Shown: piece by piece, positions 26,983 through 45,564 of the stretch
How positions within the stretch are numbered: position 1 is the stretch's first letter
How the letters are laid out: each line of letters begins with the position of its first letter
Assembly (NCBI GenBank): GCA_020632135.1
Contig: JACKGC010000002.1
Location: 3,325 to 67,324, forward strand
Origin: Candidatus Nomurabacteria bacterium
GTDB taxonomy: Bacteria; Patescibacteriota; Minisyncoccia; Phycocordibacterales; UBA918
Length of the DNA stretch: 64,000 nt
Reading direction: 5' to 3'
Program-made: the position numbers and the translations under genes
The notes under the pieces: generated by a model
Told to the model about the DNA's origin: nothing
Databases searched by the model: none
What the model saw: the letters and a program-made list of their open reading frames with translations, nothing else

Positions 26983-27024
26983 ATTTACAAAACACACATT
27001 TTGTGTTATGGTATGAAACAGGTA

Positions 27025-27045
27025 GGCCGGCGCTTCGCGCCGGCC
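27025..27045 (+). terminator. Rho-independent terminator
   Basis: GGCCGGCGC-ttc-GCGCCGGCC then GATTCTTTC. Confidence 0.6.
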
Positions 27046-27083
27046 GATTCTTTCATTGCTCTTTGAAAAGAGGAGGATAACAC

Positions 27084-28532: not shown

Positions 28533-28540
28533 GAGGTCTT

Positions 28541-30100
28541 ATGATCGAGTTTTGGCGCCAGTATGTGTCAGTCACCGTACTGACCGGCGCGTGGTCGCAT
28601 TTTCAGATCTACGTGATGTACGCGTGGACAGTAATGTTGCCACGCGCCCTCGGGGCCGGAGTATTCTATAGCTTCCGGCCAGCCAAACCAACCAAGCTTA
28701 CCGTGCAATACGGGCTCGCACTTATCCTGGCGCTGGTGTTGTTCATTGTCCCAACGGTATTTTGGGCCAAAGAGCTGATCAGTGGCTGGTATGTACTTGC
28801 TGGGGTGGTTGTGGGCATGTTGCTGGTGGCACCACCGGTCCGACGTCGGATCATTCGGTTTACCTTCCAGTCAACCTACTACGCCAAGCATGTGCGGATC
28901 GTGCCGCAGGAAGGCCCGGTCTGTGCTCAGAGAATGGTGGCTATGATGACGATCTTTGATGAAGATCCAGATTTTTTGGATCGGAGTCTGAGAAATATTC
29001 GGCGTTCGCTTGGAGCGGCACCGGGTGACTTCGTGCTCATAGCGATCATCGATGGCTACGGCAACTTTCAGCACGCTGAAGCAGCGATTCCGGTGGCCAA
29101 GCGTCACTGTGATATCGTGATGACCACCAATGCTCAGAAAAAACGGGCTGGTCTTGAAGCTATGGGGCTTGAAGCATACAGTCGAGGGTTGATCACGACC
29201 GGGGAGGAGATCATTCATCTGATCGACTCTGACACCAAACCGGCAAGTGATCAAGTGGCCTCTGAGTTAAACCGTCCGTTCGCAGATCAGACTATTGGAG
29301 GAGTGACCACGGCACAGTATATCGATAACCCGCAATCATTTGCACAGCATGTGATGCAGATATTTGAGACGATCAGGAACTTCGGTTCACAGGCATTCAT
29401 GAGCCTGTTTGGTTCGATCGGGTGTCTGCCGGGTCGTTGGTATGCAGTACGAGCAAAGTATCTCACTAAGGAGGTGTTCCACGATCTCAACTCTCACTCG
29501 TTCAGCTGGTTTGGATTATTCCGGCACATTAGTAAAGCAGGCGATGATCGTCATATTACCGAGGCTGTTTTAAAAGCTGGAGGCAAGACGATCCTAGCGC
29601 CTGACGCGGTTGTGTTTACCGGTGCACCGTATCACTTCAACGATATGCGGAAGATGGTGACTCGGTGGGCTCGTTCGTCAAACGGCTACACGTTTCGGGC
29701 GTGGTGGCTATTTCGGCCAGCGCATTGGGCGACTGCGTTTGTCTACTGGGGGAACATTGGATTGGCATTCGGGACCGTGTACATTGTGTTTCCGTATCTG
29801 CTCTACCAGTTCTTCTTCGGTGATCGGGATATCTTGCTCATCGAAGCTGCGCTGTTCATGTTCCTGAGTATGGCGATGACCATGACATTCAGGTTTATAC
29901 CAGTGTGGAGTCGGCAGTTGTATTACCTGCTCTACATGCCTGTCATGGGCTTTGTCGGGATCTTCATGCAGGTGATCCAAGTGGTCGGTATTGTCACGCA
30001 TGTGCACAAGATCGGGAACTGGGATACGCGCGGTGCTGATGTTGGGGCGAAGGATATCAAGCCAATGTGTAAGGTGATCTACGTACGACCGACGACTTGA
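28541..30100 (+). CDS. Processive family-2 glycosyltransferase (hyaluronan/chitin/NodC-synthase-like), integral membrane
   Basis: AGGAGG RBS before ATG 28541; the ORF-track start 28391 overlaps the upstream gene. Motifs DSDT, GDDRHIT and RKMVTRWARS (QxxRW-like), with flanking TM helices. Confidence 0.8.
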   Translation: MIEFWRQYVSVTVLTGAWSHFQIYVMYAWTVMLPRALGAGVFYSFRPAKPTKLTVQYGLALILALVLFIVPTVFWAKELISGWYVLAGVVVGMLLVAPPVRRRIIRFTFQSTYYAKHVRIVPQEGPVCAQRMVAMMTIFDEDPDFLDRSLRNIRRSLGAAPGDFVLIAIIDGYGNFQHAEAAIPVAKRHCDIVMTTNAQKKRAGLEAMGLEAYSRGLITTGEEIIHLIDSDTKPASDQVASELNRPFADQTIGGVTTAQYIDNPQSFAQHVMQIFETIRNFGSQAFMSLFGSIGCLPGRWYAVRAKYLTKEVFHDLNSHSFSWFGLFRHISKAGDDRHITEAVLKAGGKTILAPDAVVFTGAPYHFNDMRKMVTRWARSSNGYTFRAWWLFRPAHWATAFVYWGNIGLAFGTVYIVFPYLLYQFFFGDRDILLIEAALFMFLSMAMTMTFRFIPVWSRQLYYLLYMPVMGFVGIFMQVIQVVGIVTHVHKIGNWDTRGADVGAKDIKPMCKVIYVRPTT

Positions 30101-30187
30101 CAGGAAATCGCGACGTGACAGAATGAAGGACAGGAAGCGTAGTAGTTCGTGTGTAACACAGTTCTTAAGAAATTAGGAGGTGTCAAA

Positions 30188-30460
30188 ATGACACAAAATG
30201 TTTTGGGCTCAGCCCAAAAAGTACCCTGGTGGTACGGTCTCACTCGTGAGGCACGGCTGATCCGTCGCTTCCATGCACTGAAGGCAGCGGGGCAGACCCC
30301 GGCTATTCGCCTCAAAGGCGAGCAGCTTGCTGCGGAAGCATTGGAAGCTCCGGCTCGTCCGGGTGGTTCCTGGAAAGTGTTCCAGGAACATCGAGAAGTT
30401 CCGGTTACGACCGCCACGATCGACAAGCTCGATTGGTCTCGGAGCCTCTACAACGACTGA
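30188..30460 (+). CDS. Hypothetical protein
   Basis: AGGAGG 7 nt upstream of ATG 30188. A terminator follows. Confidence 0.5.
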   Translation: MTQNVLGSAQKVPWWYGLTREARLIRRFHALKAAGQTPAIRLKGEQLAAEALEAPARPGGSWKVFQEHREVPVTTATIDKLDWSRSLYND

Positions 30461-30490
30461 TCCTCTCTCGCTCCTTGCGGAGCAATAACC

Positions 30491-30518
30491 AAAGCGGTGT
30501 CTACGGACACCGCTTTTT
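30491..30518 (+). terminator. Rho-independent terminator
   Basis: AAAGCGGTGTC-tacg-GACACCGCTTTTT. Confidence 0.75.
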
Positions 30519-30627
30519 CTATGGGATATATTATGTGCACCATTGACTATTGACAAAAAATGTGGTGGGAGTATGATTATTGTGTAGGGTGAATTTCCGC
30601 ATGACCCTAAATGAGGAGGGGAGTCCT

Positions 30628-30894
30628 ATGAACATTTGTACAGCAAACACGGCACAATGTGTGACTTGGTTGTTGGCAGCTAGTGCTTTCATTCATGGAT
30701 GGATGCTCAGGTGGCAGTACCGCTCTAACGGTGGTGGGAATCACTGTATGGCAAAAGTTGGCCTTCATCACTACCCGGTGATTGATAAGGTTGACGAAGA
30801 TCACTACAAGCTGCATGAGATCTCTTATGGTACACAGGTAGTGCCTGCAAACAAGATCAGTCGGATCGACGGTATTGACTCGACGGTTATCTGA
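30628..30894 (+). CDS. Hypothetical small protein
   Basis: GAGGAGGGG RBS upstream of ATG 30628. A terminator follows. Confidence 0.45.
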   Translation: MNICTANTAQCVTWLLAASAFIHGWMLRWQYRSNGGGNHCMAKVGLHHYPVIDKVDEDHYKLHEISYGTQVVPANKISRIDGIDSTVI

Positions 30895-30900
30895 ATACCC

Positions 30901-30926
30901 ATGACGGCGAGCTTCGCTCGCCGTCA
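30901..30926. terminator. Bidirectional terminator
   Basis: ATGACGGCGAG-cttc-GCTCGCCGTCAT followed by ATTCTTTTT. Confidence 0.7.
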
Positions 30927-30934
30927 TATTCTTT

Positions 30935-31597
30935 TTACCACTCAATTGGCGACAATTGGTGGTTTTTTAAATATGTATTGGTCTTCGAAAAATGTTTGCA
31001 GCCCAAGAAACCCCGATGTGCTGATAGTGGGGAAGGGTGCGGTGCTTCAAGGATGAGGTGCCTACTAGTGTCGATCAGTGCGGCCTTTGAGCGAGCGTAG
31101 CTCCCCCAGAGCAAAAAGACTACGCATTCTTTCTGGTCGGAGATGGTTTTAATCACGGCATCAGTAAACAACTCCCAGCCAAGACCTTGGTGGCTGCCGG
31201 CATTGCCAGCTTCGACGGTGAGTGTGGCATTGAGAAGTAGTACGCCCTGTTTGGCCCACCGTTCGAGGTTGCCGCTAGCTGGAACTTCGATTCCTAGATC
31301 TGCTTTGATCTCCTTGTAGATGTTTTGGAGAGATGGTGGCGTGCGTACACCGTCTGGCACTGAGAAGGAAAGTCCATGAGCCTGGCTCGGGCCGTGGTAC
31401 GGATCTTGCCCGAGGATCACTACTTTCACTTGATCAAATGGACAGAGCGTAAACGCACTGAAAACATTTTTAGGAGCGGGGTAGACAACTTTCGAGAGAT
31501 ACGCTGCTTTCACTTTGGCAGAGAGATCAGCGAAATAGTCTTTCTCAAATTCTGCAGCTAACGCAGCTTTCCACGACGGCTCAATTTTTACTTCCAT
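30935..31597 (-). CDS. ung: Uracil-DNA glycosylase, family 1
   Basis: GQDPYHGPSQAHGLSFSV and HPSPLSA motifs. Confidence 0.95.
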   Translation of the reverse strand: MEVKIEPSWKAALAAEFEKDYFADLSAKVKAAYLSKVVYPAPKNVFSAFTLCPFDQVKVVILGQDPYHGPSQAHGLSFSVPDGVRTPPSLQNIYKEIKADLGIEVPASGNLERWAKQGVLLLNATLTVEAGNAGSHQGLGWELFTDAVIKTISDQKECVVFLLWGSYARSKAALIDTSRHLILEAPHPSPLSAHRGFLGCKHFSKTNTYLKNHQLSPIEW

Positions 31598-31617
31598 GAG
31601 GGGATTATACTAAAGCT

Positions 31618-31842
31618 ATGAAAGATTCACGAATTCGAAGTTTTGTAAAAGGGATCACCTGGCGCTTCATAGCGACTGCTACTGGTGCCGGTATTACGTA
31701 CTTCCTTACCGGCAGCCACGAGTTAGCCGCGTCATTTATTTTGTTTGACATTGTCCTCAAGCTACTTTTCTACTACGGCCACGAGCGCGCCTGGGGAAGA
31801 GTGACGTGGGGAAGAGCAGTGGTGCCAGTAAAGACCAAGTGA
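31618..31842 (+). CDS. DUF2061-like small membrane protein
   Basis: RSFVKGITWRFIAT...YYGHERAWGRV pattern, recalled for DUF2061. Confidence 0.65.
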   Translation: MKDSRIRSFVKGITWRFIATATGAGITYFLTGSHELAASFILFDIVLKLLFYYGHERAWGRVTWGRAVVPVKTK

Positions 31843-31861
31843 CAAGTCTGCGAAGGAAAGT

Positions 31862-31907
31862 GCGAAGGAAAGGCCTCCGCAAAAATTTGCGGAGGCCTTT
31901 CCTTCGC
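31862..31907. repeat. 46-nt perfect palindrome built from a REP-like unit GCGAAGGAAAGGCCTCCGCAAA; probably also a bidirectional terminator
   Basis: 31862-31883 is the reverse complement of 31886-31907. The same unit recurs at 62585-62608 and 62623-62645. Confidence 0.7.
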
Positions 31908-31910
31908 TAG

Positions 31911-32774
31911 CTATTTTTGACAGCCTGGACAGTAGTGGGTCCCGCGTCCGGCGCAGCGGATCTTTTTAATGGTTCCACCACAGCGCGGGCACTTGGTGCC
32001 GTGTTGACCAAAGACTTTCAGGTAGTCGGTGAAGTTACCGTTTTCACCACCAGTGTCTTTGAAATGCTGGAACGTTGTGCCGCCAACGGCGATGGATTCT
32101 TTCATGACGTCTCCGGCGGCGGCGCACAGCGCCGCCGCCTCTTTCTTGGTGACCCGATCAGCCCGCCTGGTCGGACGCACGCCCGCACGCCAAAGTGCTT
32201 CATCCACATAAATATTTCCGAGCCCTGCAATGAATGACTGGTCCAAGAGGGCTGCTTTCACTGGAGTTTTTCTCTTCCGGAGCCGATCAGCGAACCACTC
32301 ACAATCAAAATTGTCGCTGATCGGCTCCGGCCCAAACCCAGCTTTTGCTTGTTCCATCTCAGAGCGATTCACTACCTTAGTGTATCCAAACAGCCGCATG
32401 TCATTGAAGTACAGCGTGGTGTGGTCGGTAAAGTGAAACGCAACGCGGGTGTGCTTCATTGGTAGGTCCATATCGGCGGCGGTCATAGAATGACCGCCGC
32501 CCGTCACCTCCGTATCAGCCCCAACATAGAAAAACTGCCCAGTCATCTTGAGGTGTGCTAAGAGAAACAGATCATCTTCACTCTCAAAACAAAAGATCAT
32601 CAGCTTCCCGACACGGTCTATATCAGCGATCGTCTTATCTCGTAATTTCTCTTCAATCACTTCGTCATGAGCGACTGTTTTATTATGAAAAACCTCGACG
32701 GAGTCAATAGTTTTACCAATTACTTTACGCAAGAGTTGCAGTCGTACAGTCTCTACTTCTGGGAGTTCTGGCAT
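31911..32774 (-). CDS. mutM: Formamidopyrimidine-DNA glycosylase
   Basis: MPELPEVETV N-terminus and the C-terminal zinc finger CPRCGGTIKKIRCAGRGTHYCPGCQ. Confidence 0.93.
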   Translation of the reverse strand: MPELPEVETVRLQLLRKVIGKTIDSVEVFHNKTVAHDEVIEEKLRDKTIADIDRVGKLMIFCFESEDDLFLLAHLKMTGQFFYVGADTEVTGGGHSMTAADMDLPMKHTRVAFHFTDHTTLYFNDMRLFGYTKVVNRSEMEQAKAGFGPEPISDNFDCEWFADRLRKRKTPVKAALLDQSFIAGLGNIYVDEALWRAGVRPTRRADRVTKKEAAALCAAAGDVMKESIAVGGTTFQHFKDTGGENGNFTDYLKVFGQHGTKCPRCGGTIKKIRCAGRGTHYCPGCQK

Positions 32775-32833
32775 GGCGGCATTGTACCCAAGTTAGGCTA
32801 TTTTTGCGACCGGGCAGGACATATAATTTGTAC

Positions 32834-33082
32834 ATGTCTCGCAAAGTCAACAAAAAGAAACGCTATGAGGTAATGTTCGAATTTCTCCTGTTTGGTATTG
32901 TAATTGGCGTGACCGAGGATCTGCTGGCAGTTCATCTGACGACAGGAGAGACTGTTACCTGGTCGATGATCGGTATCGTGATCTTGCTGGCCATTCCGTT
33001 TGCCATTATTGGTGAACTGATCGCTGACCACGTGGACTTTGTGAAGGTCTATGAGCGAATTACAGGCCGCCGCAAGCGATGA
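32834..33082 (+). CDS. Small membrane protein, hypothetical
   Basis: Two predicted TM helices (FEFLLFGIVIGV..., MIGIVILLAIPFAIIG). Start at ATG 32834. Confidence 0.45.
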   Translation: MSRKVNKKKRYEVMFEFLLFGIVIGVTEDLLAVHLTTGETVTWSMIGIVILLAIPFAIIGELIADHVDFVKVYERITGRRKR

Positions 33083-33165
33083 ACAGTTCTTAGTTGAAAT
33101 GTGGCTAAAAATCTGTAGAATAGCGGGTACTTAGCTTTTTGCTGAGTACTAGAGCTATATATTAT

Positions 33166-33237
33166 TCCGCGGTAGCTCAGCGGTAGAGCAGTCGGCTGTT
33201 AACCGATTGGTCGCAGGTTCGAATCCTGCCCGCGGAG
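33166..33237 (+). tRNA. tRNA-Asn (anticodon GTT)
   Basis: Hand-folded cloverleaf: acceptor TCCGCGG/CCGCGGA, D-arm GCTC..GAGC, anticodon stem GTCGG/CCGAT with loop CTGTTAA, T-arm GCAGG-TTCGAAT-CCTGC, discriminator G. Confidence 0.9.
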
Positions 33238-34812
33238 CAATACAGAACTCTGAGAGTACAAATCGCTATAAAACTGTTGCCTGTCAACGGTTTTTTGCGG
33301 TTCGAACCTATCGTGAATTTGCTTTACTTCAACAGAAGCCTTTTCAATGGCTTGAAGCATATCTGGCATGATAATAAAGAGTTTTTTGTCTACAAGCTTG
33401 AGGTTCGAACCTAGCATGAACAACATCTCTTTTCTGGTTCGTAATGATCCGTTTTTAAACCTCTTGTAGGCATCCTCGGCAAAAGTGAGATATTTTTCTG
33501 CATTGTTAAACCACTCTGTCGTACGTTCATTAGTGTTTCTAACTAGAGACTCTTGTCTAGACTTCTCCTGAAGTAGTTTTGCCTTTCTAGTTTTGAACTC
33601 TTCTGCACTAATTTCTTGGCTTGCCCTAAGATCAATGAGGTTGTCTATCTTTTGCAGGAGGTCTCCTAACTTTTGCTGTTGATTAAGGATAATCTTTTTT
33701 CTTGCTTTGACCTCTCGATTGTTATCCTCTTTAAGCCGGGTCATTGCCCAATTAAAAAACTCTTCAGGTATATCAATGCTTAACATTGATTTAGCTATCT
33801 GTTTTTCAAGCTTCTTCTCCTCAATTACCTTCTGTGAACAGTTGGGGTCTTTCCGCTTCGTACAGTGATAATAAACATAATGCCTCTCTATGCCGTTTTT
33901 CTGACGCTTTACTTTGTTTTCTGCTGTAATCATGGCACCACATTCGCCACAGATGATGGGACCTTTGTATGGGAAGTTGTAAGTTTTAGGACGAGTATTG
34001 TGTTTACCACCTAAAATATCCTGTACACTCTCGAACTCCTCTCTAGTGACCATTGGGTCGTGTTTGCCTTGGTACCAATTACCACTGCCTTTTGGGTATT
34101 CAAATACGCCATAATAGAAAGGATCAGATAGTATCCTGTAAATGTTACTCTTTGAGACAGCCTTTTCTTTGCGGTTTAACAAACCCCATTCTTCAGTGGC
34201 AATTTTGAGCACTTGAGGGGGTGTATAAGCACCTGTGAGCATTAAGTCCCATATCTTTCTGACTAAGTCGTATCTTTCAGGGTCTTTGACTATCTCTTTG
34301 TCTCCTTTGTTTTTGTAAGGATTGTGCATGTATCCAATAGTAGCCCATGCCGGGTACCACCCTCTTTCTGCTTTTGCTTTCAACCCTCGCTTTGTGTCGG
34401 TGCGTAAGTCTCGGATAAATTGGTTTGCTACACCAAACTCAACCTGCATCATCAGTACGTTATCGTCTGACTTGTAGTCTCTACCGTAGGTTTGTATGTG
34501 TTCGATGACATTCTCCTGTAACATCCAGCTGATATTTCCACCATCTATGGGATTGCGGGCAAGTCGGTTAAGTTTCCAGCAGAGTATACCAGTAGCTTCA
34601 CCCGAAGAAATGCGCATTAGCATGTCATTAAAAACAGGTCGTCCGGGAGCTTTGGCTGATCGTGACTCCTCAAACACTTCTACAACGTTTAACTTTTTAT
34701 CCTTGGCTAGCTCACGTAATTCACTAACCTGAGCATCAATAGACGCCATTTGCCGGTCTTCGTTTTCTGAAGACTTTCGAGCATAGATGAAGTATTTATC
34801 TGCGGCGTTCAT
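33199..34812 (-). CDS. Large serine recombinase (resolvase/invertase N-domain, recombinase domain, zinc ribbon, coiled coil)
   Basis: YARKSSENEDRQMASIDAQ (catalytic Ser region), CGECGAMITAE...YYHC zinc ribbon and a long helical C-terminus. The last 16 codons (SSVLLRGQDSNLRPIG*) are encoded on the complement of the tRNA-Asn. Confidence 0.9.
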   Translation of the reverse strand: MNAADKYFIYARKSSENEDRQMASIDAQVSELRELAKDKKLNVVEVFEESRSAKAPGRPVFNDMLMRISSGEATGILCWKLNRLARNPIDGGNISWMLQENVIEHIQTYGRDYKSDDNVLMMQVEFGVANQFIRDLRTDTKRGLKAKAERGWYPAWATIGYMHNPYKNKGDKEIVKDPERYDLVRKIWDLMLTGAYTPPQVLKIATEEWGLLNRKEKAVSKSNIYRILSDPFYYGVFEYPKGSGNWYQGKHDPMVTREEFESVQDILGGKHNTRPKTYNFPYKGPIICGECGAMITAENKVKRQKNGIERHYVYYHCTKRKDPNCSQKVIEEKKLEKQIAKSMLSIDIPEEFFNWAMTRLKEDNNREVKARKKIILNQQQKLGDLLQKIDNLIDLRASQEISAEEFKTRKAKLLQEKSRQESLVRNTNERTTEWFNNAEKYLTFAEDAYKRFKNGSLRTRKEMLFMLGSNLKLVDKKLFIIMPDMLQAIEKASVEVKQIHDRFEPQKTVDRQQFYSDLYSQSSVLLRGQDSNLRPIG

Positions 34813-35660
34813 AAAACTATTATATCCTCTTTAAAGGGAATGATTGTTGTTGCCCTCTTTCCTAATCTTTTTTGGACTAAGCTGTTGAAAAATGCCGGAG
34901 GGTTATTTTTATGTCTTCCGTCTAATTTCTCAAACTCATCAAAAGCGTCTTCTAGTACTCCTGTTCCGTGTTTCCGGTAAACATTCAGATAAAAACCAAT
35001 CTGCGTGTCACCTACCTGCATCGCTATCTTGAGACACTTTTCTTCTTCATAAGTCTCCGGCACAAAGTGATTTGTATGAAGCTTTACTTTTTGGGGTGAA
35101 GAGGGGAGCGATCGGTTATCTTTTTCTTTTTCAGTATTAGTATCGTTATTAGGACCTCTGATTATTTCTCCGACTTGTTTGAACTTTGAACCTTTGTTTA
35201 CAATGATATTTTTGGGATGAAACCTCTGACTATGGGCATGAAACTCTACTTTGACCTCTGGCTCGATCTCTTCCTTGTTAGGTGTTAAACCTCTGCCTAT
35301 TTCATCTGTGAAGAAGTGGTTCAAGGTTTTAATCTTCCCACCAGACAATAGCCAATCTCCCATATGGACCTCAAACGAACCTCTGCGTCCGGTTCGGCTT
35401 TGATACCATATGTACCTCTTACTCTTTAGTGATAGGAGTAGTTTATTGATGTAGCTCTTGTCGACGTGTGTGTTGAAGGTGTCGTCTGCTAAGCCGTCTA
35501 GAGTCACAACAGCTACGCCATATGGGTTGCCCGATGACCTAAGGACCAACAAGAGGTTCCTTTCGGGTTTTGTGATCTTGCCATTTCTATAATCACTCAT
35601 TATGTAGCGAGGGACCGTTACGTAGTCTAGTCTCTGTTTCTCCATACTCGTCATTATCAT
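34809..35660 (-). CDS. Hypothetical protein, possible winged-helix DNA-binding (replication or regulatory) protein
   Basis: 283 aa. 4-nt overlap with the recombinase start (coupled). N-terminal region KPERNLLLVLRSSGNPYGVAVVTLDGLADD. Confidence 0.55.
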   Translation of the reverse strand: MIMTSMEKQRLDYVTVPRYIMSDYRNGKITKPERNLLLVLRSSGNPYGVAVVTLDGLADDTFNTHVDKSYINKLLLSLKSKRYIWYQSRTGRRGSFEVHMGDWLLSGGKIKTLNHFFTDEIGRGLTPNKEEIEPEVKVEFHAHSQRFHPKNIIVNKGSKFKQVGEIIRGPNNDTNTEKEKDNRSLPSSPQKVKLHTNHFVPETYEEEKCLKIAMQVGDTQIGFYLNVYRKHGTGVLEDAFDEFEKLDGRHKNNPPAFFNSLVQKRLGKRATTIIPFKEDIIVL

Positions 35661-35796
35661 TTTCTAGTAAAACAATCTCCAATAATCGACATAACCTAAG
35701 ACCCTTTTTAAGAGCTTCATCACGACCTAACACAACCCCGTATCTTTTACGGTACATCTCTATGAACTCGTCGATGTGTTGGCCTGTAAGCTTCAT
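35593..35796 (-). CDS. Hypothetical small protein
   Basis: 67-aa ORF. Overlaps the downstream ORF start by ~68 nt in another frame. Confidence 0.35.
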   Translation of the reverse strand: MKLTGQHIDEFIEMYRKRYGVVLGRDEALKKGLRLCRLLEIVLLENDNDEYGETETRLRNGPSLHNE

Positions 35797-35835
35797 GTGT
35801 GGGTGGCGTGTGAGCGAGGTTTGGTGATTTAAAAA

Positions 35836-35893
35836 ACCGTATCTCGCTTAACAGGTCCTGAACGCCTTCGGTTCCTGCTAAGCGAGATACGGT
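35836..35893 (-). terminator. Rho-independent terminator (20-bp stem, 1 mismatch)
   Basis: ACCGTATCTCGCTTAACAGG / CCTGCTAAGCGAGATACGGT. T-run on the minus strand (complement of A 35831-35836). Confidence 0.7.
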
Positions 35894-35982
35894 CTCTTTA
35901 GATAAGGTGGCGTTCGTGGGACCAAAAAGTCACACTGTCGCCAGCTTACAAAAACGCCCTGTTTAAAAATGTTCCAAACAGT

Positions 35983-36711
35983 TTATAAGGTTCGGTATAT
36001 GTCCCCTTTATTCCATTTAAAGACATCGTCGGGGAGAAATTTTTTTATATCGCCCACTCTTCTGTTTATGTGATAAATGACTTGTCTCACAGCCTCCTTA
36101 TCTTTTTTGCTGAGCTCGTCTTCGTCAATGCCCGTCAGTTCAGTAGCAATATCTTCCCATCTTACAATTTCACCAACATCCGCTTCTAACATCATAGAGA
36201 GGGCGAGATACTCTCGTTTTGATCTTTCTATTGTAAAGACTGTTATCGACCCGGAGCTCAGGACGCCAGTTTCTTTATCAAACTCCAATGGTTCGGTCAG
36301 TGGTGGAGGAAGTAAATTTGCTAACTCAATTAGTTCGTCTCTTTGTCTAGTTAGTTCTTCTAATATTTCCGCACATCGCCGCTCGCCAACTTCTGTAGGG
36401 AAGCCTAACGCACAAGCTGCGAAAGAGAAGTCTGTAGATTTAGGGTCTAGAAACTTGTTCTTTGAATATGGCCCAAAATACTCTTTGTAATAACTGACAA
36501 ACTGATATACATGTACTTTCCATACAAGGTATTTATCATGCAAGTCACAGTAAAACCTTTCTGAGGGCTTTCTGTGGCGATATCGTATTTGATCAATGAT
36601 TGCGTTACTTTGCGCAATGAGCTCATTTACTTGATCATGTGGCTTTTCGTCTGAGTCTTGTTGATCTGAAACAGATGTTGTGTCTTTGGATGGTTCACTA
36701 TTATTACTCAT
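35983..36711 (-). CDS. Hypothetical protein with a C-terminal winged-helix-like region
   Basis: 242 aa. The C-terminal FTIERSKREYLALSMMLEADVGEIVRWEDIA...VRQVIYHINRRV resembles an OmpR-type wHTH. Confidence 0.5.
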   Translation of the reverse strand: MSNNSEPSKDTTSVSDQQDSDEKPHDQVNELIAQSNAIIDQIRYRHRKPSERFYCDLHDKYLVWKVHVYQFVSYYKEYFGPYSKNKFLDPKSTDFSFAACALGFPTEVGERRCAEILEELTRQRDELIELANLLPPPLTEPLEFDKETGVLSSGSITVFTIERSKREYLALSMMLEADVGEIVRWEDIATELTGIDEDELSKKDKEAVRQVIYHINRRVGDIKKFLPDDVFKWNKGDIYRTL

Positions 36712-37042
36712 ATTGGCGTTCAGGATGAGATTGTTACAGATTACACCTAATTATCTTGTTTTGCATGGTTTTGAGGAGTCTTCGGGTAAGGAGAAAGTTT
36801 GTGTGATAGTGTTGCTTCATTATGGGGAAAGTTAGTGCTAGACTACTTAGACAACTAAATATTTCAGTGGCCTAACCCGCAGTCGTGAGATAGCGGCATG
36901 GTTTAAAACCGATCAAAGATAGAGAACCCATCATATGGGAGCACTTTGATCGGTCCTGTCGGGAAACTGGCAGTGGGTAGCTGAGCTACCGCCCATGTGG
37001 TGGGCTTTGTGTATCTCAGCTTCATAAAAACCGATCAAAATT

Positions 37043-37978
37043 ATGGATACTAAAAAAAGTCCTCGTGATGAGGCGATAAAACATGAAGCTGAACATTATG
37101 ATGAGGTTCCGCTTTGGAAGTCATTCCGTGGTTACGCTGTACTAGGGATTGGTCTGTTGGGTGGGATAATGAGTGTACATCAGATATACCTGCAAGAGTA
37201 TGTATATGTTGTAATTTTTATCTCAGTACTCGCTATGCTTTTGTATTTTGTAGCTAAAGGACACTTGTGGTCTGTGTTTGTGCTGATGCTGCTCATTGTT
37301 TTCCACTCGATTAGTAACTGGATATACTTCGGAGTTATTGAACAAAAGTCAGGTGCGTGGATGGCGCTATTTTTTGGTTTTGTGATCCTGTCTTACTTTA
37401 TGATGCCGGTATTACGAGTCGAGCAGAAGAGAAGGTTTTTACAGAAGCAAGCAAAGGAAGGTCGGGTGATTGACACTTCTGTACTGAATAATAATCATGA
37501 AGATAAGGAGTCTGTGAAGACAGGAAGTGTTGACTCTGGTCATTTAAACTTGAGCAACGTTGTTATTGCTGTTCTCCTAGGGGCTCTCTTGATAGTTTTT
37601 GTCCTTATTTGGCAGAACGATGGAGGTGAAAGGGTGGGGTCTGGGCAAAGTGGTGGCACGACTCTAGTTACCGCACAAGAGTTGGTCGATATAGAGCTTA
37701 GTCATTACAGACTTCCTTACAAAATTGACAATGGTTTTTATGTTTTTGATGTACATGCGGTAAGTCGTTCAGAAATAGCGTATTCGATCCAAGCCACGAA
37801 TTATGCTGTGAGTGATATTGACTGGACCGAGTTCGGACCCGTTCTAAAAGGGGTGATGACGTCAGATTATTGCAAAACAGATGCTAAAGACAGCGACATT
37901 ATCTTTACTTACAAGTACTTCGATAAGGTAAAGGAGCATATTGGTAGTTACTCCATCACCCCGAGGGATTGTTTTTAA
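37043..37978 (+). CDS. Hypothetical membrane protein (4-5 TM plus a C-terminal soluble domain)
   Basis: 311-aa ORF, first gene of a tightly packed four-gene plus-strand block. Confidence 0.6.
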   Translation: MDTKKSPRDEAIKHEAEHYDEVPLWKSFRGYAVLGIGLLGGIMSVHQIYLQEYVYVVIFISVLAMLLYFVAKGHLWSVFVLMLLIVFHSISNWIYFGVIEQKSGAWMALFFGFVILSYFMMPVLRVEQKRRFLQKQAKEGRVIDTSVLNNNHEDKESVKTGSVDSGHLNLSNVVIAVLLGALLIVFVLIWQNDGGERVGSGQSGGTTLVTAQELVDIELSHYRLPYKIDNGFYVFDVHAVSRSEIAYSIQATNYAVSDIDWTEFGPVLKGVMTSDYCKTDAKDSDIIFTYKYFDKVKEHIGSYSITPRDCF

Positions 37979-37987
37979 TGGTTATTT

Positions 37988-38551
37988 ATGAGCAAAGAAC
38001 ATACTTTTGCATCTTTAGGTAACCAAAAAACACCCTTGTTTTACAAGGAAGTTGTTTTCCCAGAAGGGGAAAGGCATTTCGGTATAGATGTTTCTAAAAA
38101 ATACTTTTTAGACCCATGGAGTGATAGTAAACACTCTCCTGCACAATATTATTATCAACGTGTATTTGACCTAGTGTATGAAGATGAGCCTTGGTGTTAT
38201 GAAGGAACTGTCTACAAAATACGCATAGCTACTGACTCTGGTGTTCCAGAGGTCAGCGAGTGGGGGACTGTAGAAAGCTATATCAAAACCCATCATGGAC
38301 TATGGAAGGAAGAGGCTGAGAGGCGAAAGCAGATTGTTTGGGCAATGGGAGTACCTTTAGTTGTTTCCGTAATTGGATTAAATGAGACATGGTACATACC
38401 TATTATGTTATTAGCAGGGGCTATTGGTTTTTTTGCGGTGGGGGAATGGCGGCAAGGTCGTAGTAAAAGGAAGATCAAAAAACTTTTCAGGCTAACTGAA
38501 AAAACAAGAAATGGAGGAGATAAGGCAAGTTTTGCTGATAAAACTATATAA
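37988..38551 (+). CDS. Hypothetical protein with C-terminal TM helices
   Basis: 187-aa ORF, 9-nt spacing to the previous gene. Confidence 0.55.
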   Translation: MSKEHTFASLGNQKTPLFYKEVVFPEGERHFGIDVSKKYFLDPWSDSKHSPAQYYYQRVFDLVYEDEPWCYEGTVYKIRIATDSGVPEVSEWGTVESYIKTHHGLWKEEAERRKQIVWAMGVPLVVSVIGLNETWYIPIMLLAGAIGFFAVGEWRQGRSKRKIKKLFRLTEKTRNGGDKASFADKTI

Positions 38552-38563
38552 CCAGATGGATAT

Positions 38564-39052
38564 ATGAATGATATGTTTTGTCTTAGTCAGAATGAAAGAA
38601 AGTGTTCGGAAGGTGCTGAAGCTAGGCCGGTATTGCTATCGGACTGGTTTAACAAATTGGATGCATTTCAGGCAGAGGGTTATGAGTGGGCACAGAACGT
38701 GTTGGGCATCTGTGGACCGCTTACAGGCCACAGGAGCGACTTGGTGCCGTGTGCACTTACGTGGATGGTAGATGATTACCTTAGTCATGTTCTGGGCTAT
38801 GGAGGGCAAGATTGGGAGAGTCTGCTGGATGAGTATTATGTAAACCAGGATGAGATATGGGACCGGGTGTGGAAGATTAGAGGTGAGATTGCAAAAAGGC
38901 TTCTGAGCAAGGTCGATGGTGAGGAAGTTTGTCGTTCATTAGAGAAACTTACAGAACATGAAGTTGAAGACGAGCCGGGTGTATTTCGTAACCAACTAAG
39001 CTTCACTCAACAGTTGGAGTTACGAAGCTTTGTGTCGAATGGGTTGATGTAA
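38564..39052 (+). CDS. Hypothetical protein
   Basis: 162-aa ORF in the same block. Confidence 0.5.
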   Translation: MNDMFCLSQNERKCSEGAEARPVLLSDWFNKLDAFQAEGYEWAQNVLGICGPLTGHRSDLVPCALTWMVDDYLSHVLGYGGQDWESLLDEYYVNQDEIWDRVWKIRGEIAKRLLSKVDGEEVCRSLEKLTEHEVEDEPGVFRNQLSFTQQLELRSFVSNGLM

Positions 39053-39063
39053 TAGATTAGGGT

Positions 39064-40134
39064 ATGAGTCAGATGCTTTGTTGTAATGAGTGTGGCAGGG
39101 AAGTAAGGGATGTTTTTCCGTTTCCTGGCTTTATTACTGAGGATGGTGAGGTCGAAGTGTATGACGACTGGCGAACGGCGGGTTTCTTTGACGACGAAGA
39201 CAATGTAAGTGCTGTGTCCAGAAGTGTTAGGTGGTGCATGAACTGCAAAAAAGAGGTTTATTCCTATGTTAGTCATGTTAATTGGGACTTTTGGTGGCAG
39301 GTGGTCCAAAGCTTAAGGAAGCTAGAGTATTTGACTGAAAGGCAGTATGCAAAGCTTGTAAAAAAAGAGCTTAAAGCAAATGGATATGAAGATGGTGTGC
39401 CGCTGGTTGAGGGTGCTGACTGTAAACACGAAAACATTTCTGAACAAGACATATTTAAATACCTACAGGAAAAGAAGCTCATAGGTCCAAAAGAAAAACA
39501 TCTGTTTTTCTTTGAAAGACATAAGGTCCTCATACCAACTGATCTGAAGCAAAAAGATCTTGTGCCGTACGCAAAAGTATCTCTAAATGGTTCTTGTGAA
39601 GAGTGTGGTAAACATAATCTCGCAGAAGTGGGTGGTTCGTGTCCAATCTGCGAAAAAGGTATTTTGGAGCATGTTGGGTCTTGTGAGCCTACTGAGTCAA
39701 GAGGGAAAAAAGAGTTTGTGCTCGCTGGAGAGAGTTTAGATAAAGAGCTGTATAGCGACTTATTTTCTCATTACATTCAAGGTCAGTTGTCGCTTGAGAG
39801 AGACGTGAGAAAGACGGCAAGAGACCTCTTTGATGGTGACATACGAAAAGCGGTAGCCGAGCATGAGGACTTCTTTGCAGACGCTTTTAGGCGTTTTAGA
39901 GAAGGTTTTACCATTAAAGGAGAAGTTTATAGTAAGGATACATACCCCTGCCTTTTCATTGCTTACTGTGACTTCAAGATTGAAACGGTGGCACTGGTGG
40001 TTGATATTGCAGAGAAACAGTTCGGAGGAGATATTAAGCTAGCTGTGGAGGCAGAAGATAGAAGACTGCGTGATCAAGGCTTGTGTTCTAGTCGGATTAG
40101 TAGAGTAACCAGCAAAAGGTGTGGTATTTGTTGA
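39064..40134 (+). CDS. Hypothetical protein with multiple CxxC zinc-ribbon motifs
   Basis: CCNECGREV...CMNCKKEV and CEECGKHNLAEVGGSCPICEKG. Confidence 0.55.
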   Translation: MSQMLCCNECGREVRDVFPFPGFITEDGEVEVYDDWRTAGFFDDEDNVSAVSRSVRWCMNCKKEVYSYVSHVNWDFWWQVVQSLRKLEYLTERQYAKLVKKELKANGYEDGVPLVEGADCKHENISEQDIFKYLQEKKLIGPKEKHLFFFERHKVLIPTDLKQKDLVPYAKVSLNGSCEECGKHNLAEVGGSCPICEKGILEHVGSCEPTESRGKKEFVLAGESLDKELYSDLFSHYIQGQLSLERDVRKTARDLFDGDIRKAVAEHEDFFADAFRRFREGFTIKGEVYSKDTYPCLFIAYCDFKIETVALVVDIAEKQFGGDIKLAVEAEDRRLRDQGLCSSRISRVTSKRCGIC

Positions 40135-40680
40135 GGTTTTGTCGAGTTTGTCCGCTAGATCGTAAATCTCCTTGATCAAGGCTCTGTTTTTAGTCTTATT
40201 ATCTTGTTTTTCGGCCCCGTATCCGTGGTTTGCTTTTAGTAAGAAGACCGCAAAGGTTGTATTACAACGTCCACTGAGGCTCATATTTATCAAGTACTCG
40301 TGTTGCATACTTTTAATCAGCTCTATGCCGTGTTCAAATTGAGGGTGACGCTTTGTCCAATTTCTGAATGTGTTCTTGTGAATGACCACTCCGTATTTTT
40401 TCCAGAGGAAGTTTAGATAACCGGCGATGCTTGGCATCAAAGGTTGTTTAGAAGGAGTTTGTCTTTTAATAGGCTGTCTTTCTGCTGTATTAAGTTCGCA
40501 TTGTATTAAGTACTCCCAAATATCATTGTCAGCGTAGCGTTTTTTGTATAGAGAACTCCGACCACCTCTTTTGCCTGGCGTAAGGGTTCTGTTTTTACAC
40601 TCATACGAACAAAAGTGCTTTTGCCGAGGTTTGAGTACTTTGTCGCATCGTGAGTGTTCACACGTGCGGTTTTTGATCAT
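40039..40680 (-). CDS. Terminase small subunit-like HTH protein with an N-terminal Cys cluster
   Basis: PSIAGYLNFL...NTFRNWTKRHPQFEHGIELIKSMQHEYLINMSL...TFAVFLLKANHGYG matches the recalled terS pattern (PS..GLA.YLG...T...W....F...I......E..L.......IF.LKN..GW.D). Confidence 0.45.
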   Translation of the reverse strand: MIKNRTCEHSRCDKVLKPRQKHFCSYECKNRTLTPGKRGGRSSLYKKRYADNDIWEYLIQCELNTAERQPIKRQTPSKQPLMPSIAGYLNFLWKKYGVVIHKNTFRNWTKRHPQFEHGIELIKSMQHEYLINMSLSGRCNTTFAVFLLKANHGYGAEKQDNKTKNRALIKEIYDLADKLDKTSTNTTPFAGYSTNPTRTQALITQSSIFCLHS

Positions 40681-40928
40681 GTTTACACTAAACTTATCAC
40701 AGAAAGCCCCTTACGTGCACAAAAACTCAAAAGCACTCTAGAAATGCAGTGATTTTCATGCGGTATGCAGATTTTTGGTCGGTAACATGTTCTTAACTCG
40801 TAAGTATCTTAAACAGCACAGGTTCGAACGTCCTCTATCCAGCGGAGCCAATAAAATCTTAAGTCGCACCCACTGGTGCGGCTTTTGATTTTACGGCTCC
40901 GCGGGAGTGACAGTCTGGGAGACTGTCA

Positions 40929-41032
40929 CATCAGGATTCGAAGACCTTGCCAGCTATTTTGGAGTCTGGAAGACGAACAAAATAGCGACAAGGTGTACTG
41001 AAGCTGTAAGCTTCGAATCCTGCCCGCGGAGC
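40929..41032. repeat. 104-bp repeat, copy 1, ending in att core copy 2
   Basis: Identical to 45461-45564 except for one position (GTCTGGAAG versus GTCTGAAAG). Confidence 0.9.
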
Positions 41033-41139
41033 TTTCATAAGAATACCCTTGTTTATAAGGGTATTTTTGTGCATGGTCGATCACAGAGAAACCGATTATA
41101 GCTTGTTGTATTATCTATTAAAAACACCACCCAGGTATA

Positions 41140-41733: not shown

Positions 41734-41861
41734 TTATACTACAAAAATTTATAATGACAATACGGGACAAATTCAATCGTTAGAACTATTGAAATAAAAT
41801 TTTTTGTGGTATCGTCGTGTTATCAGTCAATCCTGGCTGTGTTCTTTAAAAGGAGACAGAT

Positions 41862-41993
41862 ATGTCAATTCTCCGCCGTATCTTCGGAAGGTCGAAGAAA
41901 CACGTCGAAAAGTTCAGTACCCGGGCCGGTGGTCCGAGTATGAACTTGGTGGCCACATCCAGCCAATGCGCAGGCATGTGCAAGTGTAACTAA
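41862..41993 (+). CDS. Candidate RiPP precursor peptide (43 aa, Cys-rich C-terminus)
   Basis: Not in the ORF track (<60 aa). AAAGGAG RBS at 41849-41855. Hand translation: MSILRRIFGRSKKHVEKFSTRAGGPSMNLVATSSQCAGMCKCN*. Lies 78 nt upstream of the radical SAM gene. Confidence 0.5.
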   Translation: MSILRRIFGRSKKHVEKFSTRAGGPSMNLVATSSQCAGMCKCN

Positions 41994-42017
41994 GGGCATC
42001 GATTGGTGCCTAAACAT

Positions 42018-42047
42018 AAATTGCCTGGGTAGTCACTCAGGCAATTT
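42018..42047 (+). promoter_or_regulatory. Hairpin between the precursor ORF and the maturase gene (possible partial terminator)
   Basis: AAATTGCCTG (42018-42027) / CAGGCAATTT (42038-42047), followed by CTCT. Confidence 0.4.
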
Positions 42048-42071
42048 CTCTACGTAATTGAGGAGGGGTAA

Positions 42072-43451: not shown

Positions 43452-43454
43452 GGT

Positions 43455-43483: not shown

Positions 43484-43499
43484 ATACTATACTTTGTTT

Positions 43500-44024: not shown

Positions 44025-44228
44025 TCACAATATCAAAGTTCCGCCCCTTAGGGTGTTATGAAGGGAGTGACAGGGAATTGGGAATAAAAAACTTTACATC
44101 TTCAAACACTTTATTCCAATCAACTGTTCGAAACGCATCCAACTGGCGGAGCAAAGAAAAGTATCCCTAGAAACAGGGATATTTTTTGTTCAGAGTTGAT
44201 ACCCTGAGAAGACAGTTCGAAAAAGGTA

Positions 44229-45382: not shown

Positions 45383-45460
45383 TTAGGTAGTTTGTTGTAA
45401 CTCTGTCCCTGTACTATGTACTGGGACTTTTATTTTTTATAAAAAGTTCGAACACCATCC

Positions 45461-45564
45461 CATCAGGATTCGAAGACCTTGCCAGCTATTTTGGAGTCTG
45501 AAAGACGAACAAAATAGCGACAAGGTGTACTGAAGCTGTAAGCTTCGAATCCTGCCCGCGGAGC
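45461..45564. repeat. 104-bp repeat, copy 2, ending in att core copy 3
   Basis: See copy 1. Confidence 0.9.

What the first reader, a model, noticed from the sequence alone, without database searches (positions are those of the whole stretch)
33166..34812. Large serine recombinase ORF ends inside tRNA-Asn: its stop codon is the complement of the anticodon loop
- **What the sequence shows.** The last 16 codons of the recombinase (…SSVLLRGQDSNLRPIG*) are read from the complement of the tRNA acceptor, T-arm and anticodon stem. The TAA stop is the complement of 33199-33201 and overlaps the last two bases of the GTT anticodon (33198-33200). The ORF therefore crosses the attL junction.
- **Predicted consequence.** If excision recombines the 21-bp core with the copy at 41012-41032, the C-terminus would change to …LLRGQDSKLTASVHLVAILFVFQTPK* (hand translation).
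- **Why it is unusual.** Serine integrases normally need only about 2 bp of central identity. tRNA 3'-end targeting with a long identical core is typical of tyrosine integrases.
Basis: partly seen in the sequence, partly recalled or inferred. Interest (0 to 1): 0.6.

Follow-up and report, generated by a model that had tools for sequence, protein, structure and literature searches.

The report
Serine integrase that targets tRNA genes
A 7.6-kb mobile element in a Candidatus Kaiserbacteria genome is inserted in the 3' end of tRNA-Asn, apparently by its own large serine integrase. Its attachment site lies inside the last codons of the integrase gene, so the gene now ends in the antisense tRNA, and hundreds of related integrases in candidate-phyla bacteria sit on tRNA genes in the same way.

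Summary
**Observation: confirmed.**
- tRNA-Asn(GTT) is at 33166-33238 (+).
- The 537-aa large serine recombinase (LSR) ORF is at 33199-34812 (-).
- Its last 11 codons are antisense tRNA. Its TAA is the complement of 33199-33201.

**Interpretation: only partly right.**
- The ORF does cross attL. The recombination partner, however, is not the 21-bp repeat at 41012-41032.
- The real attR is at 40821-40848 (GGTTCGAAC-N13-CGGAGC).
- The common core is 7 bp: GCGGAGC, at 33232-38 and 40842-48.
- A metagenome contig 99.99% identical to the host flank (L083) joins the tRNA directly to 40849 onwards. This is the empty site, so the element is 33239-40848 (7,610 bp).
- Rejoining attL and attR gives the tail ...LLRWIEDVRTCAV*. 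Homologues that are not joined to a tRNA carry this same kind of tail.

**Family-wide pattern.**
- Of the 80 best of 549 relatives in GTDB species genomes (mostly Patescibacteria), 46 overlap an antisense tRNA in the same register (Asn, Lys, Gln, His and others).
- In 5 more, the tRNA carries a group I intron.
- On the tRNA side the T-loop lies 8 bp from the core. On the element side a T-loop mimic lies 13 bp from it. This is the 5-bp attB/attP offset known for serine integrases.

**Verdict.** This is an ordinary LSR mechanism with a short core, used on a rarely reported class of target. The 21-bp and 107-nt repeats belong to a separate 4.5-kb indel.

The parts
33166..33238 (+). tRNA-Asn(GTT), intact. 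Its last ~6 nt (33233-33238) are supplied by the element.
   Evidence: ARAGORN; sequence
33199..34812 (-). Large serine recombinase gene, integrated form, 537 aa. Codons 527-537 (33199-33231) are antisense tRNA.
   Evidence: AF2 model: residues 527-537 have pLDDT below 50. Foldseek top matches are the SPbeta, Bxb1, phiC31 and LI integrases.
33232..33238 (.). attL copy of the 7-bp common core GCGGAGC (tRNA positions ~68-74). The crossover must lie here.
   Evidence: Identical to 40842-40848. The empty site L083 and the variant junction L001 both diverge at 33232/33233.
33213..33231 (.). B half-site: T-arm plus the acceptor 3' strand. The T-loop box lies 8 bp from CGGAGC.
   Evidence: Consensus of 53 tRNA-joined loci: GCtCcg.ggg..GGAtTCGAACC
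33239..33263 (.). P' (X) half-site. It also encodes ...YSQSSVL of the recombinase. It is conserved at the DNA level (TAC.C..AAA.TCC.....TG).
   Evidence: Consensus of 73 loci and third-codon-position conservation at codons 522 and 525
33299..33308 (.). T-loop-like palindrome GGTTCGAACC inside the gene (codons 502-505, RFEP), ~69 nt from the core.
   Evidence: Present at 68-69 nt in 63 of 72 loci. Synonymous sites are frozen: GAA 65, GAG 0.
33402..33411 (.). Second intragenic palindrome GGTTCGAACC (codons 468-471, GSNL), 172 nt from the core.
   Evidence: Present at 172 nt in 47 of 72 loci. Codons: TCG 66 of 80, AAC 77 of 80.
33239..40848 (.). The integrative element, 7,610 bp, about 42% GC against about 51% for the host. 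It carries the LSR, six ORFs without family matches, and a small-terminase-like gene.
   Evidence: The empty-site contig L083 joins 33238 to 40849. GC profile. Pfam and PHROGs.
40039..40680 (-). GP3_package / small-terminase-like protein at the far end of the element
   Evidence: Pfam PF16677, 1.4e-10; phrog_3064 terminase, 9.8e-12
40821..40841 (.). P (Y) half-site at attR: GGTTCGAAC followed by 13 nt (40830-40842, whose last base is the first base of the 7-bp core) before CGGAGC. The T-loop mimic lies 5 bp further out than on the tRNA side.
   Evidence: Same layout in 24 Y arms. Control: 17 hits at spacing 13, against 0-1 at every other spacing and strand.
40842..40848 (.). attR copy of the core GCGGAGC
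   Evidence: Contig L084 from SRR14234115 carries this junction at 100% identity.
40849..40893 (+). B' arm: the native 3' trailer of tRNA-Asn, with a hairpin (GCACC-cact-GGTGC) and T runs
   Evidence: Follows the tRNA directly in the empty-site contig L083; sequence
40926..41032 (.). 107-nt repeat, copy 1. It ends in the 21-nt tRNA-Asn 3' fragment. It is not the LSR partner site.
44126..44152 (.). Relic attR of another family member: GTTCGAAA-N13-CGGAGC, followed by a terminator hairpin. The reverse complement reads LR-QLDAFRTVDW.
   Evidence: The tail matches P0035 and P0089.
45458..45564 (.). 107-nt repeat, copy 2. It marks the right edge of the low-GC region.

Best explanation
**What it is.** Window 33239-40848 is a 7.6-kb integrative element. 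It is inserted in the 3' end of tRNA-Asn, and I infer that its own large serine recombinase put it there.

**Where the attachment site lies.**
- The element's attP sits inside the last ~12 codons of the recombinase gene.
- The P' arm is the coding sequence ...YSQSSVLL.
- The core is GCGGAGC.
- The P arm carries a T-loop mimic (GTTCGAAC) 13 bp beyond CGGAGC.
- The host attB is the acceptor 3' strand plus the T-arm of the tRNA, where the true T-loop lies 8 bp from CGGAGC, followed by the tRNA trailer.

**What integration does.**
- Strand exchange within the 7-bp core rebuilds the tRNA. The host supplies positions 1 to ~68 and the element supplies the last ~6 nt.
- It also fuses the recombinase ORF to the antisense tRNA.
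- The native tail WIEDVRTCAV* is replaced by GQDSNLRPIG*.
- The new stop codon comes from the complement of U35-U36-A37.

**What I infer about the tails.**
- Both tails are mainly by-products of the att site overlapping the ORF. VRT and DSN are the same T-loop box read in two frames, because of the 5-bp offset.
- The zinc-ribbon domain reads the T-loop box. This would explain how the family has moved among Asn, Lys, Gln, His, Arg and other tRNAs.

**Shown.** attL, attR, attB, the fold, and the family-wide pattern.

**Inferred.** attP of this particular copy, the exact crossover dinucleotide, which domain reads the box, and catalytic activity.
For: 1. **The protein is a full-length LSR.**
   - Pfam finds three LSR domains.
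   - The catalytic-motif residues R12, S14, R83 and R86 are invariant in 38 homologues.
   - The AF2 model best matches the SPbeta, Bxb1, phiC31 and LI integrases, with E down to 7e-21.
2. **Three of the four junctions are observed.**
   - attL and attR are in the window.
   - attB is in contig L083, which is 99.99% identical to window 21911-33238 and then continues as 40849-40871.
   - Contig L084, from the same sample, carries attR. Occupied and empty alleles therefore coexist.
3. **The reconstructed tail fits the family.** Joining the attL and attR arms gives ...LLRWIEDVRTCAV*. This matches the L.D.[IV]RT tails of homologues with no adjacent tRNA.
4. **The 5-bp offset is present.**
   - The tRNA side reads core-N8-ATTCGAAC (53 loci).
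   - The P side reads core-N13-GTT[CA]GAAC (24 arms).
   - This is the offset of the zinc-ribbon motif between attB and attP in Rutherford et al. 2013 (PMC3783163).
5. **The pattern replicates.**
   - 46 of 80 related loci carry an antisense tRNA in register.
   - 5 more carry tRNAs with group I introns.
   - In 13 loci an attR with a 6-10-bp core lies 5.3-11.4 kb upstream and restores the tail.
   - Control: 17 hits at spacing 13 on the expected strand, against 0-1 elsewhere.
6. **Long repeats are not a family feature.** 43 of the 46 tRNA-joined loci show no repeat of at least 11 bp of the tRNA 3' end within the up to 10 kb of upstream sequence held.
7. **The swapped tail looks unstructured.** Residues 527-537 have pLDDT below 50.
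Against: - No attP (circular) junction of this exact element was found. My only metagenome scan used a pattern that also matches attR, and it retrieved only another attR.
- Contig L001 carries an identical LSR gene joined to a different P-type arm, followed by 63%-GC DNA. This is unexplained.
- The P' (X) arm shows no clear mirror image of the GTTCGAAC box, and the B' arms have no consensus. Only one half of each site fits the textbook symmetry.
- The crossover dinucleotide cannot be fixed. Several candidate dinucleotides in the core are palindromic in some family members.
- Activity, directionality and any recombination directionality factor (RDF) are untested.
Confidence: 0.85

Rival explanations
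1. The recombinase uses the 21-bp tRNA-identical core, and excision pairs 33218-38 with 41012-32. The element would be 33239-41032 and the excised tail ...GQDSKLTASVHLVAILFVFQTPK*.
For: - The 21-bp repeat is exact.
- The translation is correct.
- The low-GC region continues past 41 kb.
Against: - The empty-site contig ends the insertion at 40848, not 41032.
- The predicted tail resembles no homologue, whereas the 40843 junction restores the family tail.
- 43 of the 46 tRNA-joined loci have no repeat of at least 11 bp of the tRNA 3' end.
- The 41012 copy has attB-type (N8) spacing, not attP-type spacing.
- Contigs L093 and L094 show that 41033-45457 is an independent indel.
Confidence: 0.03
2. 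A tyrosine integrase, since lost, placed the island at the tRNA. The serine recombinase would be a passenger, and its overlap with the tRNA accidental.
For: - 21-nt displaced-tRNA-fragment repeats are the classical tyrosine-integrase signature (PMC4383910).
- They occur twice here, each beside a conserved 86-nt arm and with no integrase nearby.
- This may well be the origin of the 107-nt repeat system itself.
Against: - For the 7.6-kb element the boundaries are LSR-type, with a 7-bp core and P- and B-type spacing.
- The overlap recurs in register in 46 of 80 loci on many different tRNAs.
- No PF00589 (tyrosine integrase) match was found among the ORFs of at least 90 aa from 33-46 kb that were scanned. 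Three antisense ORFs nested in longer ones were not scanned.
Confidence: 0.03
3. The tail swap is a regulatory device, not a by-product. Losing the native L.D.VRT tail on integration would change recombinase stability or directionality, as reported for Mx8 IntP/IntX or for integration-dependent immunity. I cite both systems from memory.
For: - The native tail motif is conserved.
- The Arg codon is kept through CGA/AGA changes.
- The architecture is fixed across a very large family.
Against: - Integrated tails are arbitrary. Some end 1 residue after LLR, some run 10 residues, and some run more than 40 residues through an intron.
- The conserved tail letters coincide with the DNA box at N13.
- The tail is predicted to be disordered.
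Confidence: 0.2
4. The element is a fixed, dead relic, and the ORF extension is a meaningless read-through.
For: - No circular junction was detected.
- The neighbouring region is full of relics.
Against: - The ORF is intact and its catalytic-motif residues are conserved.
- Empty and occupied alleles with 99.99-100% identical flanks coexist in one sample.
- An identical gene occurs in a second junction context.
Confidence: 0.08

Closest known systems
Phage large serine integrases (LI/A118, Bxb1, phiC31, SPbeta)
   Same: - Domain order: resolvase, recombinase, and zinc ribbon with a coiled coil.
- The best structural matches.
- Short common core.
- The outer DNA motif lies 5 bp closer to the centre in attB than in attP (PMC3783163).
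- The integrase gene sits at the end of the element, next to attP.
   Different: - No sequence-level match to their C-terminal domains.
- The target is a tRNA gene, not a protein-coding gene or intergenic site.
- attP lies inside the integrase ORF.
- About 80 extra C-terminal residues.
- Two further DNA-level conserved T-loop-like boxes lie within the gene.
Serine recombinases already reported at tRNA genes: the phiRSM resolvase-like Int (tRNA-Ser) and Mycobacterium AICE serine recombinases (tRNA-Leu)
   Same: A serine recombinase integrating at a tRNA gene. This has been called rare (PMC3218068; PMC4471427).
   Different: - phiRSM Int is a small resolvase/invertase type, with its attP between genes.
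- The AICE group is a handful of actinobacterial elements at a single tRNA.
- Here the clade is very large, mostly Patescibacteria, and uses at least nine different tRNA anticodons in one fixed register.
- I made no sequence comparison with either group.
Tyrosine-integrase tDNA islands (Islander type)
   Same: - The target is the 3' part of a tRNA gene.
- The element restores the tRNA.
- The integrase gene lies next to the tRNA.
   Different: - The enzyme family is different.
- The core is 6-10 bp rather than a long displaced tRNA fragment.
- No PF00589 gene was found.
Integrases with attP inside their own gene: archaeal SSV-type 'suicidal' integrases (PMC8371274) and Myxococcus phage Mx8 IntP/IntX (from memory)
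   Same: - attP lies within the integrase coding sequence.
- Integration at a tRNA gene changes the gene product.
- The module is compact.
   Different: - Those are tyrosine recombinases.
- SSV-type genes are split into inactive halves.
- Here only the last ~10 codons, predicted to be disordered, are exchanged.

Membership tests
Large serine recombinase / serine integrase | N-terminal resolvase-type catalytic domain with the nucleophile serine | tested here: met
   PF00239, E = 1e-20, residues 8-151. R12, S14, R83 and R86 are invariant in 38 homologues.
Large serine recombinase / serine integrase | Recombinase domain plus a zinc-ribbon domain carrying a coiled-coil insertion | tested here: met
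   PF07508 and PF13408. Long helices at 352-454 in the AF2 model. Foldseek matches full-length SPbeta, Bxb1, phiC31 and LI integrases, E from 7e-21 to 8e-12.
Large serine recombinase / serine integrase | Short att sites; attL and attR share only a few bp around the crossover | tested here: met
   7-bp core in the window. 6-10 bp in 13 other attL/attR pairs, with the caveat that the search itself required a 6-bp match. The empty site confirms the boundaries.
Large serine recombinase / serine integrase | Outer (zinc-ribbon) motif 5 bp closer to the centre in attB than in attP, on both half-sites | tested here: inconclusive
   Clear for the B and P arms (N8 against N13). No recognisable motif in the P' or B' arms.
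Large serine recombinase / serine integrase | Catalyses attP x attB recombination, with RDF-dependent excision | not testable with these tools
   Only the coexistence of empty and occupied alleles is seen.
Tyrosine-integrase tDNA island | Tyrosine recombinase gene on the island | tested here: not met
   No PF00589 match in any of the 18 ORFs scanned. These were ORFs of at least 90 aa between 30.9 and 46.3 kb; three antisense ORFs nested in longer ones were not scanned.
Tyrosine-integrase tDNA island | The island is bounded by the tRNA and a displaced tRNA fragment | tested here: not met
   21-nt fragments exist at 41012 and 45544. The element's boundary as shown by the empty site is 40848.
SSV-type 'suicidal' integrase | attP inside the integrase gene, so that integration splits the gene into inactive parts | tested here: not met
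   attP is inside the ORF, but 526 of 537 residues stay contiguous. The enzyme is also not a tyrosine recombinase.

The most novel reading that the evidence does not exclude
**Proposed reading.**
- The two extra GGTTCGAACC boxes lie 69 and 172 nt inside the gene, and their synonymous sites are frozen across the family. They could be accessory binding sites for the integrase's zinc-ribbon domain.
- That would make this a serine integrase with an extended, multi-site attP, comparable to a resolvase res site.
- In that case the tRNA-dependent tail swap could also feed back on directionality.

**Practical corollary.** The family would then be a set of integrases that read the universal T-loop. They might be retargeted to tRNA genes in any genome, including human.
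Probability: 0.2. Interest if true: 0.8.

Novelty: new variant of a known kind. Interest (0 to 1): 0.6.

Why it matters
[quoted passage not shown] Here a very large clade appears to do so systematically. It has more than 4,500 database proteins at E <= 1e-10 and 549 loci in GTDB species genomes, mostly from candidate-phyla bacteria.
- **Mechanism.** The att sites are a natural illustration of the 5-bp attB/attP offset model. The universally conserved T-loop acts as the outer motif, which suggests how target switching between tRNAs can occur.
- **Annotation.** Tools that search for tRNA-linked islands using tyrosine integrases and long repeats will miss these elements. Gene callers will report recombinases with spurious tRNA-derived or intron-derived tails.
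- **Engineering.** Integrases that read a T-arm could find ready-made landing sites in many genomes.

Tried and rejected
- **Long repeats in other loci.** I looked for repeats of the tRNA 3' end in 46 other tRNA-joined loci. 43 had none of at least 11 bp; the three matches (11, 12 and 20 bp) did not look like attR sites. This ruled out a long core as a family feature.
- **The L001 arm.** I searched the window for the reverse complement of the P arm seen in contig L001. It is absent, so L001 is not the excised form of this copy.
- **Rfam on attP-type contigs.** No RNA gene explains the L.D.VRT tails.
- **Circular contigs.** None of 12 complete contigs has terminal repeats.
- **IMG/VR.** Only one weak relative was found, so these elements are not recognised phages.
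- **Metagenome scan for the attP junction.** I chose the pattern badly (core plus Y arm only).
- **Terminator scan at 33100-33500.** Nothing reached the tool's criteria, so I do not claim that the element supplies a terminator to the tRNA.
- **PDB sequence search.** It matched only N-terminal domains. The fold search was needed to confirm the full architecture.
- **History of 40849-45564.** I tried to order the events and could not. I leave this region as relics.
Full report
**1.
- ARAGORN finds a single tRNA in the window: tRNA-Asn(GTT) at 33166-33238 on the + strand, with its anticodon at 33198-33200.
- On the - strand an ORF runs from 34812 to 33199. It is 537 aa and ends ...SSVLLRGQDSNLRPIG*.
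- Its TAA stop is the complement of 33199-33201, which are U35, U36 and A37 of the tRNA.
- Pfam finds Resolvase, Recombinase and Zn_ribbon_recom domains.
- An AlphaFold model built on 38 homologues has mean pLDDT 78 and long coiled-coil helices at 352-454.
- Its best structural matches are full-length large serine integrases: SPbeta, Bxb1, phiC31 and the Listeria LI integrase, with E from 7e-21 to 8e-12.
- By sequence alone, only the N-terminal domain matches any solved structure.
- GC content falls from about 0.51 to about 0.42 between 33.2 and 45.5 kb.
- The host is a Candidatus Kaiserbacteria bacterium, according to the names attached to identical flanking proteins.

**2.
- TTCGAATCCTGCCCGCGGAGC occurs three times: 33218-38, 41012-32 and 45544-64.
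- The second and third copies are the ends of a 107-nt direct repeat that is 98% identical.
- I scanned the low-GC region for CGGAGC and found, at 40821-40848, the sequence aGGTTCGAAC-gtcctctatccag-CGGAGC|caataaaatc.
- Joining the recombinase 3' end to the reverse complement of that arm gives ...QSSVLLRWIEDVRTCAV*.

**3. The empty site settles the boundaries.**
- I looked up the flanking Fpg protein and retrieved contig L083 (Logan assembly of SRR14234115).
- L083 is 99.99% identical to window 21911-33238. It then reads ...cctgcccgCGGAGC|caataaaatcttaagtcgcaccc, which is window 40849-40871.
- The insertion is therefore 33239-40848 (7,610 bp).
- attL and attR share only GCGGAGC, at 33232-38 and 40842-48.
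- Contig L084 from the same sample carries the attR junction at 100% identity. Occupied and empty alleles therefore coexist.
- The sequence after attR begins with a hairpin and T runs, as expected for the native tRNA trailer.

**4. This is a family property, not an accident.**
- The recombinase has more than 4,500 database relatives at E <= 1e-10, and the named ones are mostly Patescibacteria.
- Their C-termini fall into four classes:
  - tRNA-complement tails ending in the same register as this one;
  - proteins that stop just after 'LLRG';
  - long read-through tails (...IDYTYPKISLRGGLYHHP);
  - tails of the form L.D.[IV]RT....
- GTDB species genomes hold 549 related loci.
- In the best 80 loci, ARAGORN places an antisense tRNA over the gene's end in 46. 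In 40 of these the tRNA 3' end is at exactly the same codon position.
- The tRNAs are Asn 22, Lys 7, Gln 7, His 5, plus Trp, Ile, Ser, Ala and Arg.
- Thirteen more loci have a T-arm at the same spacing but no called tRNA. Five of these lie at contig ends.
- In five loci the 'missing' tRNA is interrupted by a group I intron (Rfam RF00028). This explains the read-through tails.
- The 'LLRG*' class simply meets a stop codon in the T-stem.
- Five of the 80 loci carry the L.D.VRT tail, and none of them has a tRNA. All read GCTCCG-N13-GTTCGAAC or close variants. So does the metagenome contig L001.

**5. The att-site anatomy follows the serine-integrase rule.** Sequences here are written in the recombinase-sense orientation.
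- tRNA-joined sites read core-N8-ATTCGAAC (53 loci).
- Free-type and attR arms read core-N13-GTT[CA]GAAC (24 arms).
- Rutherford et al. 2013 showed that the zinc-ribbon motif lies 5 bp closer to the crossover in attB than in attP (PMC3783163).
- In 13 other loci, a site made of the same 6-mer core, N13 and this box lies 5.3-11.4 kb upstream of the gene. It is often preceded by a terminator-like hairpin.
- Joining to that site restores an L.D.VRT tail, and the cores are 6-10 bp.
- As a control I scanned spacings 6-20 on both strands, upstream and downstream. This gave 17 hits at spacing 13 on the expected strand, against 0-1 elsewhere.
- 43 of the 46 tRNA-joined loci have no repeat of at least 11 bp of the tRNA 3' end.
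- The 5-bp offset also explains the two tails. VRT (GTT CGA ACN) and DSN (GAT TCG AAC) are the same box read in different frames.
- The tRNA-derived residues 527-537 have pLDDT below 50.
- Limits: the P' arm, although conserved at the DNA level, shows no mirror image of the box. The B' arms have no consensus. The crossover dinucleotide cannot be placed within the core.

**6. What the 21-bp and 107-nt repeats are.**
- Contigs L093 and L094, from other samples, carry the attR and trailer region followed by a single copy of the 107-nt repeat and then the host zinc-ribbon gene. They lack 41033-45457.
- That 4.5-kb segment carries genes for a GNAT acetyltransferase, a radical-SAM/SPASM protein and a DUF6176 protein, and no integrase. 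It is therefore an independent indel.
- It contains a relic attR of another family member at 44126-44152: GTTCGAAA-N13-CGGAGC.
  - The reverse complement reads LR-QLDAFRTVDW, like the tails of P0035 and P0089.
  - It is followed by a terminator hairpin.
- The 21-nt tRNA fragments look like the displaced fragments left by tyrosine-type elements.
- I could not order the events and treat this region as relics.

**7. Loose ends.**
- Contig L001 (same sample) is 100% identical to window 36927-33233. It then continues with a different P-type arm (tail LYDEIRTYFMSLSD*) and 63%-GC DNA. It may be a mosaic relative or an assembly chimera.
- No attP junction of this exact copy was found, and my single metagenome scan was poorly designed.
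- Two further GGTTCGAACC boxes lie inside the gene at fixed distances from the core: 69 nt in 55 of 72 loci (68 nt in 8 more), and 172 nt in 47 of 72.
  - Their synonymous sites are frozen. Third-position identity is 0.94-0.99 against a gene mean of 0.49, Ser is TCG in 66 of 80, and Glu is GAA 65 times against GAG 0.
  - Some homologues read the first box in another frame (VRTS instead of RFEP).
  - This points to selection at the DNA level. The function is unknown.

**8. Comparison with what is known.**
- The mechanism is that of a large serine integrase.
- The exceptions they cite are the small phiRSM recombinase at tRNA-Ser and a few mycobacterial AICE recombinases at tRNA-Leu (PMC3218068; PMC4471427).
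- Mycobacterial prophage surveys still assign tRNA sites to tyrosine integrases (PMC10654092).
- Integrases with attP inside their own gene are known among tyrosine recombinases: the archaeal 'suicidal' integrases (PMC8371274) and Mx8 (from memory). Those genes are split or altered far more drastically.
- Full-text searches combining candidate-phyla terms, serine recombinase and tRNA found nothing relevant. The library does not cover subscription journals.

**9. Verdict.**
- The element is best described as a new variant of a known kind. It belongs to a large, mostly Patescibacterial clade of serine integrases that target the acceptor/T-arm end of tRNA genes and carry attP within their own last codons.

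Noticed in passing
window 33299-33308 and 33402-33411 (also L002-L081): Two GGTTCGAACC palindromes lie inside the recombinase gene, at fixed distances from the core: 69 nt (68 nt in a few loci) and 172 nt. They are conserved at synonymous sites across the family, and some homologues read the first one in a different frame. The function is unknown.
   Followed up: partly
window 44126-44152: Relic attR of a second family member: GTTCGAAA-N13-CGGAGC followed by a terminator hairpin. The reverse complement encodes LR-QLDAFRTVDW. No recombinase gene is left nearby.
   Followed up: partly
window 40926-41032 and 45458-45564; L093, L094: 107-nt direct repeats, each ending in a 21-nt tRNA-Asn 3' fragment, flank a 4.5-kb segment without an integrase. 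Contigs from other samples lack this segment.
   Followed up: partly
L001 3696-3868: A recombinase gene identical to the window's is joined to a different attP-type arm (tail LYDEIRTYFMSLSD*), followed by 63%-GC DNA unlike the 41%-GC element. It may be a mosaic element or a contig chimera.
   Followed up: partly
L002 4679-4975, L013 6757-7020, L030 11603-11877, L053 11607-11871, L061 11608-11813: Group I introns interrupt the tRNA genes targeted by related recombinases. ARAGORN misses these tRNAs, and the recombinase ORFs run on into the antisense intron.
   Followed up: partly
window 40039-40680: A small-terminase-like (GP3_package) protein sits in a 7.6-kb element with no other phage genes. 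This is reminiscent of phage satellites that redirect packaging.
   Followed up: no
window 42072-43451 and 41140-41733: A radical-SAM/SPASM protein with a weak PqqD-like C-terminus sits next to a GNAT acetyltransferase, inside the 4.5-kb indel. This may be a peptide-modification cassette.
   Followed up: no
window 46518-52655: A 2,045-aa ORF with repetitive content and no Pfam family on record lies just outside the island. A 2,023-aa variant is present in related contigs (L087-L089).
   Followed up: no
window 41043-41070 and 44162-44190: Including the trailer at 40849, three different 'tRNA trailer plus terminator hairpin' modules each follow a CGGAGC core. This suggests successive insertions that each pushed the previous trailer downstream.
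   Followed up: no
L005 7568-7682: A LOOT RNA (RF03000) match lies about 4 kb upstream of the recombinase gene in a related element.
   Followed up: no
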